Assembly (NCBI GenBank): GCA_951406725.2
Contig: OX597821.1
Location: forward strand, 85,498,001 to 85,562,000
Length of the DNA stretch: 64,000 nucleotides
Origin: Octopus vulgaris
Lineage: Eukaryota
Direction of reading: 5' to 3'
Shown: positions 55,901 to 64,000 of the stretch, piece by piece
Layout: every line of letters starts with the position of its first letter
Position numbering within the stretch: position 1 is the first letter of the stretch
Program-made: the position numbers

Positions 55901-57310
55901 CAATTGGCAGTAACCTCAAATGTATGTAAAAGAGAAAAAAATATGCTTTGAATGTCGGTATCCTATTTCTCTTAACTTGTTGAAGGAATAAGATACAAGA
56001 TGTGAATGTGTTGTTACTGTATCAGTGTAATCAGAATTCCATTATTTCAAGTAGCAATTAAGTTGAAAATTAATTTAAAATGCGAAAATGAGAAAAAAAA
56101 AAGCAATGCTTGCCCCAGCAAATTTTAAAATGTGAACTTGGAAAAGTTTGAAAAATATTATCAGGATTCTGAAATCAATGAAAATTTGAAATATTTCAAG
56201 TTTTATTTTATTTTATTTACTTTTGGTAGGAAAAAGGTTATCAAAATGTCCAAATTTAAATATCAACAAGGTTAAAAATAAGTGAAAAGTGTAAATTACA
56301 TAGGAAAATACCAAAACTTAAAACTAATTTATATCTTTCCTAAGATAAGTATATTCAGGTTGATGAAAATAAGATAGATTAACAGCCTGGAAGTACTTCT
56401 TATAACTTAATCTACCGTCAGATTCAGAGTTACAACATTGCTGACTTGTCCTCTTTTATCATACTTTCAATAAAATTGTCTCATTATTAATTGTTAAATG
56501 AAACACTGTAAGAGGAAAAATCCAACTCACTTCTACATGACCCTGCAAGGGAAAAAAAAAATGTCATCTCTCTAGCTACAAAGAAATGCTTTTGTTTTAA
56601 GCAATGAATGAAGCCTTAATTAGTTTTAAAATTATATGTAATTTAATTGTGAAGGCAGGAATAAGTAGCTTATCCTAGAGATTCTGAAAGAGTTATACTA
56701 AATTTTGAAATCTTGACCATTTGATCAGTTTATTATTTAAATACACACACACACATACAACATACCTTGATACTAGTTTATGATTGTATGTACTCTAAGC
56801 AACTTAGGTTAAGTTCCTTAATTTGGATGGTTACAGTTTTGATGTCACTTTAGAACAGATACAAGGTTTACAGTAGATGCAACAGGTGATGTTATAACTT
56901 CCTCCATTTTCTACATTATATACAGAGGTATAAGCATGTTTGTATACTCTTTTACTTGTTTCAGTCATTTGACTGCAGCCATGCTGGAGCACTGCCTTTA
57001 GTCGAGGAAATCACCCCCAAGACTTATTCTCTGTAAGCCTAGTACTTATTCTATCGGTCTCTTTTGCCAAACTGCTAAGTTATGGGGATGTAAACACACC
57101 AGCATCGGTTGTCAAGTGATGTTGGAGGGACAAACACAGACACACACAAATATATATACATATACATATATACGACAGGCTTCTTTCAGTTTCCGTCTAC
57201 CAAATCCACTCACAAGGCCTTATCTATTCCAAAAGTTAACACCATTGATATTTGAAACCAGAGCAAAATGAGCTGAAACGACCAGATTATATGATGCTTA
57301 TATCCACATG

Positions 57311-57354
<44 letters not shown>

Positions 57355-59068
57355 TGTGTGTATTTGTACAGTAGTTAGAATTTTCTTACCAATAGAGAAT
57401 GAGCCAGTTTCTAGTTTAGAAGCAAAACTCCCTGAATGAAATTTACACACCATCAAACTGAGCAGACTTGTATGTATGTATGTATGTATGTATGTATGTA
57501 TGTATATATGCATGTATGTAGACATGGGTGCAAGCACTAATGGCATTGAATATATCATTTTACATGCTGAACTGTGTATGTTTTACATATTTTGATGAAG
57601 TCTTTGACAGCATATAACTATAATCTTTTGAGTGAGTGTATATATTTGCAGATATATATTTATATGTATGTGTGCATGTATATATATATGTGTGTGTGTG
57701 CGTACATATATATATGGTGTATGTATGTGTGTGTGTGTGTGTATGCATATGTATATGTGTATATGCTGCCAAAAGGAAGGTAGGTACACAAAAAAGACTC
57801 AAATAGATTACATTGCCCTTTCCTTTTTTTATATAACAAATTTTCTGTTATTTTTGTACCATTCTTTTCTCTCTTCCAATGTGTACTATACCTTCTGTAG
57901 CCTCCTTCATGGTCAAATTTATGTGAATGTGTGTGTGTATGAATATATATGTGTGTCTATATACGCATGTCTGCATATCTATGTATGCACTTGTATATAC
58001 ATACATATTTGTGTATGTATATACACACACACACACATATAGATGTATATACACATGCATATTTGCATCTAAATGCGTGTGTCCATATAGTTAGTTAACA
58101 TTTTTATTTGCTTTTGGATATTTTATGCCCTTTCATGTCTTGTTGAAATTTTCTTTTTAATGATGATTCCTGCCTATCTTAAGTATCTATTCGCAGAAAA
58201 TACCTTAATGTGTGTGTGTGTGTGTGCGCGTGCCTATCTGCATGTTTGGTGTCTTGAGTGTGTAGTTATATTCCAAATCTTATTAAAGGATGGGTTTTAG
58301 CTAAAAGTGAGATAGAAAATTAAAAGAAGTCTAACTGTAATGGTAAATAAAACAATTATGTACTGCACCAAGCTCAAAAAAAAAAAAAAGGTGAACATGG
58401 TCAACTAACCTATTAGAAATAACAGTCAAAACTTAAAAAAGAAGATACAAAACCAATGTAGTCCTAGACATACAAGCAAAAATGTCTGGTCATAGTTTGC
58501 CATAAATTTACTCAATCAGCAGGACATACTTGGGACAGAACGGAGCAAGAACATTTTATTTCAATTTAGAGGGAAAAGGTGGGGAAAATCTGCATTTTTA
58601 ACCAATACAACGTTTAAAGCTGTAAGTAACTTTAGAATATGCATTTCACTACCAATCAATAAACATGGAAAAGTGGTGAATAAAAAGTGCTATTTCTAAT
58701 CAACAGAGTAAATGAAGATGGAACAATTTAACAATTAGCGAACAAGAGTCTAACTAAGGCTGATTTATCTATCATCAAAACATTAAAATCAAAATAAAAC
58801 ACAAGCAAAAGTTCAAATTAACCAAGCAGAATATTAATTAGAAACCTTAAATGAAAAGAAAACTTGTGAAATATTAATCTAATCATGTCAAGCTATTAGA
58901 GAGTGATCAAACAGTTGTTTGTATAGTTTATAATAAAATTATTCCAATAAGATTTACACAGACAAGCCTTTGTGTGATATCTAATAGAAGAGAAAGTTTA
59001 TAAAAATAGATGACCTGCAAGTATCAATAATTTAGCAATTTCTTGATCTGTTTCATATACAAATACAA

Positions 59069-61248: not shown

Positions 61249-61292
<44 letters not shown>

Positions 61293-64000
61293 CACACACA
61301 CATACATATAAATATATATCTGCAACTATATACACTCACTCAAAAAATTATAGCTATACGCTGTCAAAGGCTTTATCAAAATATGTAAAACATACACAGT
61401 TCAGCATGTAAAATGATATATTCAATGCCAGTAGTGCTTGCACCCATGTTTACATACATGCATATATACATACATGCATACATACATACAAGTCTGCTCA
61501 GTTTGATGGGGTGTAAATTTCATTCAGGGAGTTTTGCTTCTAAACTAGAAACTGGCTCATTCTCTATTGGTAAGAAAATTTTAACTACTGTACAAATACA
61601 CACACACACACACACACACATGCATGTGGATATAAGCATCATATAATCTGGTCGTTTCAGCTCATTTTGCTTTGGTTTCAAATATCAATGGTGTTAACTT
61701 TTGGAATAGATAAATGAGAACTAGTCCCGTGCCAAGGATGATTATGTACTTTGTCAATGTCTGTCAGTTGGTCCCTCCTAATACAAGAAATTGACTGTTG
61801 TCTGTCTAGGTGGGGGGAATGGGCTCTGTCAGCACATATATAATGCACACGTACACATAGATATATGTATATATACATCTGAGACCCCCTTCCGTCACGA
61901 CACTGACCATGGGATTGCACGTAGAAAGTTACCCTCCCAGGCACAAGTCTGGGCAAGGTTGTTTTTTTTTTTTTAATGGAAGACCAGCAGTCACCCATGC
62001 ATACCGGACCCCTCTCCATGCCACCAGTGTTATACAAGGGAAAGGCAAGGGCCAATACAGCATGGCACCTGTGACGTCGCAACTCATTTCTACAGCTGAG
62101 TGAACTGAAGCAACATGAAATAAAGTGTCTTGCTCAAGAACACAACACGCAGCCCGGTCTGGGATTCGAGCTCACAACCTCACGATCATAAGCTTGACGG
62201 TCTAATCACTGAGCCATGTGCCTTCACTGTATATATACATATACATAAATGTATATAAGAATGTGTGTGCATATATACACCATCACTTTATTCCGGTGAG
62301 GCACTGAAGATCTTGAACTGTTAATAGACTAAAAGATCAAGGAAAGCTATACTTGGGTTTAAAAAAACTCCCAAAACAAAGAAACAAAACAAAATTTATC
62401 ACATTTTCACATTACATACATATGTGTGTGAATGTTGACATTCTTCAATGACTTTATAGAGGCAATAGTCATCATCATCAAATCATCTGTTAACATCCAC
62501 CTTCCATGGTGTGGGTTGGACAATACATCAACAATTCCCTGTCAATAAATTGCATTGTAGCACAACACTTTTGAAGAGAAGGCCTAGAAAAATGGGTATG
62601 GGTTAGTAACAAGAAAATTATCCAGCAGTAAAACAATGCCTCTACATCTTCGTTATGCTAGTATGGAAAACAGAGTTTAACGAAGGAACAATACAAACAC
62701 ATACCACACACAAGTGAGAGTAAGGTGAAAATACCTCAGAAGACATCAATCAGTCAGTCAATATACCAACGTCTCTCAAGAAACATTTTTATAAAAACAG
62801 CTACAAGCTGCAAATCATAGTACAGCAGATTGTAACTTGTATGAGAAAGAAAGTTGAGGTTTAACTTAAATGAACACAGTTTATATTCATGGATGGGACA
62901 TACACAAAGCATATCCAATGAATTAGGCTCATGACTTACTCAAAGCAATTAATTAGGTATATCCATTTAATAGGTTAACTGGAGCAGAACTTCAAATTTA
63001 CTCAAACAACTTAATATCAATATAAAGATCTAATCAGAAAACCATGTAAGTAGCAGCTTTACTACAAAGTCATTATACATATGAATAACAAATCTTCTGT
63101 TGAACAGAGCACCAATGCAAATTCTAGTTTCTGGGTGTTAAATGAATGAAAGTCAAATCATCTTGAGGATTAAATGCCAAAGTGTTCCCTAAGAGAAGTA
63201 TTTAACTCAGTACTGGAACAGAGTATATAAAGCATTCAGTTTTAAGATATCACCACTGTTTATTGTCTTTTATTTACTTATAGCTAGACAGAGCAGACAT
63301 GGCTGTGTGGTAAGATGCATGCTTCCCAACCACACAGTTCCAGGTTCAGTCCCACTGTGTATAAACCTTGGGTAAGTGTCTTTTACTATAGCCCAGGGCT
63401 GACAAAAGCCTTGTGAGAGGATTTGGTAGATGGAAAAATATGAACAGAATGAGCACCAGGCATTAAAAATAAAAAGTTAGTGGGGTTGATTTGTTTAATT
63501 AAACTTTTCAAGAAAGTGCCCCAGCATGGCCACAATCCAATGAGTGAAACAAGTAAAAAAGATAAACAGATTCAATGAGAATGACATGTCTTGGTCTGCT
63601 ACACAGCACCAGGGTTAGGATATGAACCCTTCTTCAGTTTGGTACCCTATTGATACAGTGCAGGACTGTCCTCAGCCACTATGCTGCTTATGAAATATGT
63701 GTGAAATTAAGTGATGTATTGAAGAATATAATAAATAAATAAATCCCTTGGTTTTTGAGTTACTTAGTTATTATGCTTCACAATACAAATAGTAAAAGTA
63801 TCTAAAAGATATGACTTTACTAGTCACCAAACTAAATCTTTTCCATACTTTCATCTGTTTTGAAGCGAAATGCATGCACACACATTAATAAAAGAAATAA
63901 GCTCTGGGAATGAGAAGAAGAAATATTGAAGATATTTGGAGGAATGGTGTTATGACCACATTACACATCTCTGTAAAAGAGTACAATCAAATAAAAATAC

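What the first reader, a model, noticed from the sequence alone, without database searches (positions are those of the whole stretch)
57220..61713. Three-tier nested inverted duplication forming a ~4.5 kb fold-back
Seen: concentric arm pairs 57220-58287/60699-61713 (~1 kb), 58904-59180/59630-59925 (~280 bp) and 59288-59356/59502-59570 (69 bp), separated by unrelated spacers. The arms are not recognisable transposons and have diverged slightly. Inference: it arose either as one palindrome with reciprocal deletions or by serial template switching. In the pre-mRNA it would give about 1.4 kb of near-perfect duplex, a strong ADAR or endo-siRNA substrate, and in DNA a possible inversion hotspot.
Basis: partly seen in the sequence, partly recalled or inferred. 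Interest (0 to 1): 0.7.

Follow-up and report, generated by a model that had tools for sequence, protein, structure and literature searches.

The report
Decaying nested inverted duplication, non-coding
A real but probably functionless 4.5 kb stretch of non-coding DNA in which a 1 kb segment was copied backwards next to an AT-rich palindrome, a known kind of replication or repair scar.

Summary
The outer arms, 57220-58287 and 60699-61713, share 961 of 1008 aligned bases (95.3%; 39 transitions, 8 transversions; 12 mostly microsatellite indels). The two large spacers are unrelated to each other.

Thirty shuffles gave at most 41 bits, against 1428 observed. The transition bias and CpG-linked changes argue against an assembly artefact. 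I found no target-site duplication, no Pfam domain and no second copy in the 64 kb.

The left arm runs against the window's A>T strand bias: 0 of 231 outside windows are as low. It starts exactly where a SINE-like repeat is cut off, with a 2-nt overlap. So it is probably the inverted copy, pasted in by fold-back or template-switch repair.

If transcribed as one RNA, the region folds into about 1,306 bp of duplex. No exon, transcription or selection for pairing was found, so "pre-mRNA" is unverified. Genome-wide copy number, orthologous loci and reads could not be checked.

This is a new member of a known kind, of low to moderate interest.

The parts
56945..57221 (.). Cut-off copy of a ~400 bp dispersed SINE-like repeat. 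Its homology to the other copies ends exactly where the left outer arm begins, with a 2-nt 'TT' overlap at 57220-57221.
   Evidence: (D5-D7). No flanking direct repeat longer than 3 bp.
57220..58287 (.). Left outer arm, inferred to be the inverted copy.
   Evidence: AT skew is -0.18 (-0.12 after masking tandem repeats), lower than all 231 1-kb windows outside the structure.
58288..58897 (.). Left spacer L. It is 45% A, unique within the window and unrelated to the right spacer.
58898..59356 (.). Left half of the inner AT-rich quasi-palindrome.
59357..59501 (.). Central loop of 145 nt.
   Evidence: (I12).
59502..59931 (.). Right half of the inner quasi-palindrome.
59932..60174 (.). Right spacer, part R1; unique within the window.
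60175..60594 (.). Full-length copy of the same SINE-like repeat inside the right spacer. The left side has no counterpart.
   Evidence: Only 5-bp candidate flanking repeats.
60595..60698 (.). Right spacer, part R2.
60699..61713 (.). Right outer arm, inferred to be the native template.
   Evidence: AT skew is +0.157 (+0.107 masked), typical of the window.

Best explanation
This is a genuine, evolutionarily aged, non-coding inverted duplication with a unique spacer. It is a scar of replication or break repair, not a mobile element and not an assembly error. The most likely history (inferred): a break fell inside or beside an older SINE-like repeat at about 57221. The broken end primed DNA synthesis on its own strand about 2.4 kb away, by fold-back or template switching. 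It copied the 1.0 kb segment now at 60699-61713 in reverse, and was rejoined to the other end through a 2-nt overlap. That produced the left arm and removed the head of the SINE-like repeat. The AT-rich, (TA)n-laden quasi-palindrome in the middle (58898-59931) arose either in the same multi-switch event or separately. It may have been the hairpin-forming, break-prone site that provoked the event. Since then the arms have drifted apart by point substitution and microsatellite slippage. Shown: the anatomy, the divergence pattern, the composition polarity and the cut-off repeat at the junction. Inferred: the break, the direction of copying and the role of the inner palindrome. Nothing indicates a function. 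If the region is transcribed as one RNA it would form about 1.3 kb of duplex and be an ordinary ADAR substrate.
For: (1) The divergence looks evolutionary rather than technical. The outer arms show 47 mismatches in 1008 aligned bases, 39 transitions against 8 transversions, and 10 of the 47 fall at CpG sites. The 12 indels are mostly in (TG)n, (TGTA)n and (TA)n tracts. (2) Polarity. The + strand of the window is A>T (mean AT skew +0.09, sd 0.086). The left arm is -0.18, or -0.12 after masking tandem repeats, and 0 of 231 outside 1-kb windows are as low in either version. The right arm is +0.157, or +0.107 masked; 21% and 33% of outside windows are at least that high. Spacer L is +0.29. (3) Homology of the left SINE-like copy to six other copies stops at 57221, and the inverted repeat starts at 57220. 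The missing ~120-140 bp head is not found to the right of 61713. That copy has no flanking direct repeat. (4) The large spacers are unrelated to each other and to the rest of the window. (5) The architecture matches sequenced human inverted duplications, which carry unique spacers of 766-70,466 bp (median 3,428) and 2-8 bp of junction microhomology (PMC3907307, passages read). Here the spacer is 2,411 bp. (6) No feature of a mobile element was found: no flanking repeat longer than 2 bp, no Pfam hit in the arms and no other copy in 64 kb.
Against: The polarity argument rests on one compositional marker in one 64 kb window, and the sliding windows overlap, giving only about 58 independent ones. 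A 2-nt overlap at a single junction is weak: 134 of 1000 simulated human junctions had 2 bp or more (PMC3907307). The inner junction cannot be tested without the ancestral sequence. Divergence of the inner palindrome (11 of 332, 3.3%) does not differ from that of the outer arms (47 of 1008, 4.7%; Fisher p = 0.35). That result fits a single event, but it fits a single original palindrome equally well. Relative dating of the SINE-like copy in the right spacer is inconclusive. It differs from a leave-one-out consensus at 24 of 354 positions (6.8%), but only 7 of 354 (2.0%) are private to it. The per-arm divergence is 2.3%. The inner palindrome is not significantly centred in the spacer: gaps of 610 and 767 bp give about 157/1377 = 0.11 by my own arithmetic coordinates. 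Genome-wide copy number, the orthologous locus and read support were all out of reach.
Confidence: 0.55

Rival explanations
1. One original ~4 kb palindrome, formed in a single fold-back centred on the 145-nt loop, later lost its symmetry. Segments were replaced, deleted or inserted independently in the two halves. These secondary rearrangements interrupt and so stabilise a long palindrome, and they left the non-matching bubbles and the large unrelated spacers.
For: The divergence of the outer arms and the inner palindrome is statistically the same (4.7% against 3.3%, p = 0.35). There are three replacement bubbles at different scales: about 27 against 41 bp, 78 against 45 bp, and 624 against 773 bp. 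This fits the idea that long palindromes are unstable and become interrupted by secondary rearrangement (PMC10766186, passages read). Counting private substitutions only, the SINE-like copy in the right spacer could be as young as the arms (7 of 354), and so could be a later insertion.
Against: The two large spacers sit at the same homologous position in both halves, yet share nothing. That requires at least a deletion plus an insertion at one spot, or two abutting deletions. Spacer L has the native A-rich composition (+0.29) while the adjacent left arm has the inverted one. L has no source elsewhere in the window.
Confidence: 0.25
2. The whole of 57220-61713 is one copy of a fold-back or long-terminal-inverted-repeat DNA transposon. 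The alternative is that the inner palindrome alone is such an element.
For: The terminal inverted repeats are long and end sharply at both ends. Octopus genomes are reported to hold many TIR, MITE and unclassified repeat families (PMC13282606, passages read).
Against: No flanking direct repeat longer than 2 bp occurs within 12 bases of either end of the outer pair. The 'TGATCA' beside the inner palindrome is itself palindromic and lies inside the repeat. If the element had inserted into the SINE-like repeat, the rest of that repeat should lie to the right of 61713, and it does not. There is no other copy of the arms or spacers in 64 kb, whereas the SINE-like repeat has at least 10 copies or fragments there. 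No transposase or other Pfam domain was found. Apart from ordinary microsatellites the arms are unique sequence.
Confidence: 0.1
3. It is an assembly artefact: a chimeric fold-back long read, or two haplotypes joined head to head.
For: Palindromic joins are a known failure mode of long-read assembly (my own knowledge; no call). No read data could be consulted.
Against: The arms differ at 4.7% of aligned sites with a 39:8 transition bias, and 10 of the 47 changes are at CpG sites. That is not the pattern of read errors. Reported octopod heterozygosity is 0.08-1.10% (PMC9795677, passage read), far below 4.7%. Unrelated spacers of 0.6-0.8 kb, a repeat copy present on one side only, and a 145-nt loop are not what a chimeric read produces.
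Confidence: 0.04
4. It is a hairpin-RNA locus kept by selection, serving as an endo-siRNA source or an ADAR-bound dsRNA. This concerns maintenance, whatever the origin.
For: The predicted + strand RNA fold has an MFE of -2351.5 kcal/mol, with 1,306 cross-arm pairs and perfect runs of up to 70 bp. Octopus is reported to have very high hyper-editing and an unusually high share of loci able to form long dsRNA, 4.4e-3 (PMC5625713, passages read).
Against: There is no strand bias that would preserve pairing: 26 transitions give G.U on the + strand RNA and 19 give A.C (p = 0.37). The arms are microsatellite-rich and have no coding similarity that would point to a target gene. No exon was found in the window. 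No Rfam family reaches its threshold. The sub-threshold mir-297/466 hits lie on TG/CA-rich low-complexity sequence. Hairpin-RNA loci were seen only in the abstracts of Drosophila papers.
Confidence: 0.06

Closest known systems
Inverted duplications with a unique ('disomic') spacer, formed by fold-back after a break (human constitutional cases; PMC3907307, passages read)
   Same: Two inverted copies flank a non-duplicated spacer of a few kb. Here the spacer is 2,411 bp; there the range is 766-70,466 bp with a median of 3,428. Junction overlaps are short, and interspersed repeats sit at the breakpoints.
   Different: The copied segment here is only 1 kb rather than megabases, and both ends were resolved locally. 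This is a fixed, aged germline variant at 95% identity, not a de novo one. There is no terminal deletion or dicentric history to be seen.
Template-switch models at replication forks (ODIRA, FoSTeS/MMBIR; PMC10766186, passages read) and hairpin-mediated foldback inversions in yeast (PMC7467729, abstract in listing only)
   Same: Inverted copies arise near pre-existing short inverted repeats or hairpins. Palindromic junctions are later interrupted by secondary rearrangement.
   Different: No triplication or amplification is visible. The strand that switched and the number of switches cannot be recovered from one sequence.
Palindromic AT-rich repeats (PATRR11/17/22, about 190-600 bp) and cruciform-forming AT/TA repeats such as Flex1 (PMC1851657 and PMC12972899, abstracts in listing only)
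   Same: The inner element is 79% AT and palindromic, carries long (TA)n runs, and folds as one long hairpin in single-stranded DNA (-305.5 kcal/mol).
   Different: It is longer, about 1 kb. It is imperfect, with a 145-nt loop and two bubbles. No breakage or translocation is known for it.
Foldback (FB-type) and long-TIR DNA transposons
   Same: Long inverted termini enclose unrelated sequence.
   Different: No target-site duplication, no second copy in 64 kb and no subrepeat arrays or transposase were found. The description of FB elements is recalled, not taken from a call.
Inverted repeat pairs as ADAR substrates, and Drosophila hairpin-RNA loci (PMC5625713, passages read; PMC10317233, abstract in listing only)
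   Same: A transcript spanning the region would form long, near-perfect intramolecular dsRNA.
   Different: The arms are unique sequence rather than paired interspersed repeats. There is no evidence of transcription, and no similarity to a gene that could be a target.

Membership tests
Inverted duplication with unique spacer (fold-back / template-switch product) | Two copies in inverted orientation with high identity, far beyond chance | tested here: met
   961 of 1008 aligned bases are identical. The match scores 1428 bits, against at most 41 in 30 shuffles.
Inverted duplication with unique spacer (fold-back / template-switch product) | A non-duplicated spacer of kb size lies between the copies | tested here: met
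   The spacer is 2,411 bp. Its two unique flanks are unrelated to each other and unique in the window.
Inverted duplication with unique spacer (fold-back / template-switch product) | Microhomology at the novel junctions | tested here: inconclusive
   There is a 2-nt TT overlap at the outer junction, 57220-57221. The inner junction cannot be scored without the ancestral sequence.
Inverted duplication with unique spacer (fold-back / template-switch product) | An ancestral or orthologous allele that lacks one copy | not testable with these tools
   No eukaryotic genome collection was available.
Fold-back / long-TIR DNA transposon | Target-site duplication flanking the termini | tested here: not met
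   No direct repeat longer than 2 bp lies within 12 bases of either end.
Fold-back / long-TIR DNA transposon | Multiple dispersed copies | tested here: inconclusive
   None in the 64 kb window. The rest of the genome could not be searched.
Fold-back / long-TIR DNA transposon | A transposase, or arms built of tandem subrepeats | tested here: not met
   0 Pfam hits for the 6 frames of 90 aa or more inside the structure, and 0 among the shorter frames there. Only ordinary microsatellites are present.
Assembly artefact (chimeric fold-back read or haplotype join) | Arms identical, or differing only by error-like changes | tested here: not met
   47 substitutions with a 39:8 transition bias, 10 of them at CpG sites.
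Assembly artefact (chimeric fold-back read or haplotype join) | No spanning-read support | not testable with these tools
   No reads were available.
Hairpin-RNA / endo-siRNA locus | The long inverted repeat folds into one hairpin | tested here: met
   RNAfold gives 1,306 cross-arm pairs at -2351.5 kcal/mol. This is in silico only.
Hairpin-RNA / endo-siRNA locus | Transcription and small RNAs from the arms | not testable with these tools
   No expression data were available.
Hairpin-RNA / endo-siRNA locus | Arms derived from, or complementary to, a target gene | tested here: not met
   No Pfam similarity in any arm frame that was scanned. No protein database search was run on the arms.
Palindromic AT-rich repeat (inner element only) | AT-rich, near-perfect palindrome | tested here: inconclusive
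   It is 79% AT. The matching islands agree at 321 of 332 bases, but are interrupted by a 145-nt loop and two bubbles.
Palindromic AT-rich repeat (inner element only) | Cruciform extrusion and breakage in vivo | not testable with these tools
   Only a single-strand DNA fold was computed.
SINE (the ~400 bp repeat at 56945-57221 and 60175-60594) | Short, non-coding, many dispersed copies in both orientations | tested here: met
   At least 10 copies or fragments occur in the window. Seven were aligned.
SINE (the ~400 bp repeat at 56945-57221 and 60175-60594) | Head related to a tRNA or another small RNA | tested here: not met
   ARAGORN found 0 genes. Rfam gave no tRNA hit at E up to 1 in 56800-61900 and none at gathering score in the window. 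I therefore call it 'SINE-like'.

The most novel reading that the evidence does not exclude
The AT-rich, (TA)n-laden inner palindrome is a hairpin-forming fragile site. It has provoked fold-back repair more than once, so the palindrome has grown outward in tiers. That would make the locus a natural germline record of a palindrome seeding a larger palindrome. On top of this, the resulting 1.3 kb duplex could be transcribed and act as a dedicated ADAR or siRNA substrate in an animal with unusually heavy RNA editing.
Probability: 0.12. Interest if true: 0.5.

Novelty: new member of a known kind. Interest (0 to 1): 0.25.

Why it matters
As it stands this is a well-preserved small example of a known class, the inverted duplication with a spacer. 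Two features let the direction of copying be inferred from the sequence alone: strand composition, and a repeat cut off at the junction. That makes it a useful worked case but not a surprise. One paper reports that the octopus genome is unusually rich in loci able to form long dsRNA (PMC5625713), so one more such locus is expected. It would matter more in two cases: if orthologous loci showed stepwise outward growth from the AT-rich core, or if the region proved to be transcribed and heavily edited or diced.

Tried and rejected
1. Dating the SINE-like copy in the right spacer against the duplication. A consensus-based figure (24 of 354) first suggested that the repeat is older. Counting only private substitutions (7 of 354) removed the signal, because two subfamilies are present. 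I treat the dating as inconclusive.
2. Looking for the missing head of the cut-off SINE-like repeat to the right of 61713, which would indicate insertion of the whole structure into that repeat. It was not found.
3. Looking for a source of spacer L, R1 or R2 elsewhere in the window, which would indicate a templated insertion. None was found.
4. Testing for selection on RNA pairing through G.U against A.C transitions. There is no bias: 26 against 19.
5. Rfam. Nothing reaches a gathering score in the whole window. The relaxed search of 56800-61900 gave 61 sub-threshold rows, almost all repeat-type miRNA families on TG/CA-rich sequence. The best was 52.9 bits against a cut-off of 90. I rejected these as low-complexity matches.
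6. Gene context. All 54 stop-to-stop frames of 90 aa or more were scanned (42, the other 12), plus 234 frames of 55-89 aa. Those 234 had passed an entropy filter above 3.3 bits; I did not count the low-complexity frames that the filter dropped. The only hit above its Pfam cut-off was GIY-YIG at 44713-45273. The sub-threshold hits were DUF6451 and DNAJC11_beta-barrel, the latter on the (GA)n tract.
7. A Tc1/mariner-like reading of the inner palindrome (ends near 'CAGT'). I rejected it because there is no TA duplication and the inverted repeat runs past that point.
8. Supplement of PMC13282606. It is listed as one docx, which I did not open. It might hold repeat-family tables but could not settle a question at the level of sequence.
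Copy number in the source genome, orthologous loci and the identity of the organism therefore stayed unchecked.

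
Full report
**Observation**

The fold-back is real. A repeat scan of 56000-63000 found the outer pair as a chain of inverted matches (I1-I4, I7, I9, I10). It found the middle pair as I5 and I6, and the inner pair as I12: 59285-59356 / 59502-59573, 72 nt, 97%.

blastn joins the outer pair into one alignment, 57220-58287 against 61713-60699: 1074 columns, 89.2% identity, 1428 bits. Thirty dinucleotide shuffles of the same 7 kb gave at most 41 bits over 31 columns. The window contains no N.

**Anatomy**

A global alignment of the outer arms gives 961 matches and 47 mismatches, of which 39 are transitions and 8 transversions. 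There are 67 gap columns in 12 indels, so substitution identity is 95.3%. Most indels fall in (TG)n, (TGTA)n and TA-rich tracts. Ten of the 47 mismatches sit at a CpG in one arm.

blastn also aligns the whole of 58898-59931 to its own reverse complement (76% identity, 51 gap openings).
- 58912-59043 / 59781-59925: 126 matches, 5 mismatches.
- 59071-59209 / 59611-59745: 125 matches, 4 mismatches.
- 59285-59356 / 59502-59573: 70 matches, 2 mismatches.

These islands surround a 145-nt loop, 59357-59501. Two short bubbles beside (TA)n tracts interrupt them. The element is 79% AT. As single-stranded DNA it folds into one long hairpin at -305.5 kcal/mol.

The two large spacers are 58288-58911 and 59926-60698. 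They are unrelated in either orientation: scores of 10-14 lie within the range of 100 shuffles in all four comparisons. Neither has a relative elsewhere in the window.

The right spacer contains a full copy (60175-60594) of a ~400 bp dispersed repeat. That repeat has at least ten copies or fragments in the window, in both orientations. A cut-off copy of the same repeat, 56945-57221, abuts the left arm. Its homology to six other copies ends at 57221 and the inverted repeat starts at 57220, a 2-nt overlap.

I call this repeat SINE-like only. ARAGORN and Rfam found no tRNA relationship.

**Artefact or transposon?**

The transition bias, the CpG-linked changes and the microsatellite slippage are marks of evolution, not of read error. 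The 4.7% divergence is several times the heterozygosity reported for four octopods, 0.08-1.10% (PMC9795677, passage). The unrelated spacers, the one-sided repeat copy and the loop are not what a chimeric read gives. Reads themselves were not available.

Several results speak against a transposon:
- No flanking direct repeat longer than 2 bp lies within 12 bases of either end.
- The missing head of the cut-off repeat is not on the far side of the structure.
- No other copy of the arms occurs in 64 kb.
- No Pfam domain was found in any frame scanned inside the structure.

The decisive whole-genome copy count could not be made.

**Direction of copying**

The + strand of the window is A-rich throughout. 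In 1-kb windows outside the structure the mean AT skew is +0.090 (sd 0.086), or +0.078 (sd 0.071) after masking tandem repeats.
- The left arm is -0.181 (-0.120 masked). In both versions 0 of 231 outside windows are as low.
- The right arm is +0.157 (+0.107 masked), which is ordinary.
- Spacer L is +0.29.

So the right arm and spacer L lie in the native orientation, and the left arm looks like a reversed insert. Together with the repeat cut off exactly at its outer end, this points to one reading. The left arm is an inverted copy of the right arm, laid down at a break in or beside the SINE-like repeat.

The layout of arm, 2.4 kb unique spacer and inverted arm with a short junction overlap is that of fold-back inverted duplications sequenced in humans. 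Those have spacers of 766-70,466 bp (median 3,428) and 2-8 bp of microhomology. In the same study, 134 of 1000 simulated junctions also had 2 bp or more, so the overlap here is weak evidence on its own (PMC3907307, passages).

**One event or several?**

Divergence of the inner palindrome (11 of 332) and of the outer arms (47 of 1008) does not differ (Fisher p = 0.35). That is compatible with three histories: one multi-switch event, two events close in time, or one original palindrome that was later interrupted. The last is a route proposed for unstable long palindromes (PMC10766186, passages).

I prefer copy-and-paste for two reasons. The single-palindrome route needs a deletion and an unrelated insertion at the same homologous spot. 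It also leaves the native-like composition of spacer L unexplained. The preference is moderate.

Dating the spacer's SINE-like copy did not help. It differs from a leave-one-out consensus at 24 of 354 sites, but only 7 of 354 differences are private to it. These figures bracket the 2.3% per-arm divergence.

The inner palindrome is only loosely centred, with gaps of 610 and 767 bp. By my own arithmetic that is about 0.11 under random placement. Its suggested role as the hairpin-forming trigger is an inference. It rests on analogy with AT-rich palindromes and AT/TA repeats (PMC1851657, PMC12972899) and with hairpin-mediated foldback inversions in yeast (PMC7467729). For these three papers I saw only the abstracts in the search listings.

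**Age**

A p-distance of 0.047 gives a Jukes-Cantor distance of about 0.048 between the arms, or about 0.024 per arm (my arithmetic). One paper reports 0.065 as roughly 18 million years for Octopus vulgaris repeats (PMC13282606, passage). If that calibration applies, the duplication is several million years old.

**RNA and function**

If the 4,494 nt were transcribed as one + strand RNA, RNAfold predicts -2351.5 kcal/mol, with 982 pairs between the outer arms and 324 between the inner halves. Perfect runs reach 70, 61 and 59 bp.

Such an RNA would be a plausible ADAR substrate. Octopus is reported to have very high hyper-editing and a high share of dsRNA-forming loci, 4.4e-3 (PMC5625713, passages). 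The same figure means that loci of this sort are common there.

Nothing shows that the region is transcribed. Among 54 frames of 90 aa or more and 234 filtered frames of 55-89 aa, the only Pfam hit above its cut-off was a GIY-YIG domain at 44713-45273. I take that to be probably a retroelement remnant rather than a host exon.

Transitions between the arms show no bias towards G.U on either strand (26 against 19, p = 0.37). Selection to keep the duplex is therefore not visible.

The longest perfect identity of 70 bp makes present-day arm-to-arm recombination, and so inversion, unlikely. This assumes that the few-hundred-bp identity requirement I recall from mammalian studies holds here; that figure comes from no call.

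**Verdict**

This is a genuine, aged, non-coding nested inverted duplication, and it belongs to a known class of replication and repair scars. Its internal evidence favours 'right arm copied backwards into a broken SINE-like repeat'. Interest is low to moderate. It would rise if orthologous loci showed tiered growth from the AT-rich core, or if expression data showed a heavily edited or diced hairpin.

Noticed in passing
window 44713-45273 (+): A 187-aa open frame with a GIY-YIG catalytic domain (E = 4.9e-7, 30.4 bits against a cut-off of 22.6). It may be a remnant of a Penelope-like retroelement; that reading is recalled, not tested. No reverse-transcriptase domain was found in neighbouring frames.
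   Followed up: partly
window 43056-43381: A nearly perfect (GA)163 microsatellite (99% matches). It leaves all six frames open and causes the strong GC and AT skew of 42001-44000. The weak DNAJC11_beta-barrel hits there are low-complexity artefacts.
   Followed up: partly
window 32973-33114: A 142-bp stretch that aligns to its own reverse complement at 88.7%. It is a second, much smaller palindrome in the window.
   Followed up: no
whole window: The + strand shows a steady A>T asymmetry across all 64 kb (mean AT skew +0.09). Only a few windows are below zero, and the left arm of the fold-back is the lowest. The cause is unknown; transcription, replication and repeat orientation are all possible.
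   Followed up: partly
window 14305-14732, 17644-18011, 26304-26548, 27553-27982, 44324-44685, 46805-47185 and fragments at 5663, 19302, 24375, 46447, 63301: Many copies of the same ~400 bp SINE-like repeat, in both orientations. They appear to form at least two subfamilies: the copies at 60175 and 27553 share variants that the others lack. Several inverted pairs lie within 1-3 kb of each other and could also form dsRNA.
   Followed up: partly
window 5126-5650 (-): A 175-aa open frame with a sub-threshold match to DUF6451 (24.1 bits against a cut-off of 28).
   Followed up: no
window 59246-59263 and 59490-59507: An 18-nt direct repeat with one mismatch, seen by eye. One copy lies in the left bubble of the inner palindrome. 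The other spans the boundary between the loop and the inner arm. It could be a trace of a template switch or a chance match in low-complexity sequence.
   Followed up: no
window 57990-58060 and 60932-61002: Local TG/CA-rich hairpins inside both outer arms give sub-threshold matches to repeat-derived miRNA families. The best is mir-297 at 52.9 bits against a cut-off of 90, and mir-466 also appears. I read these as low-complexity similarity.
   Followed up: partly
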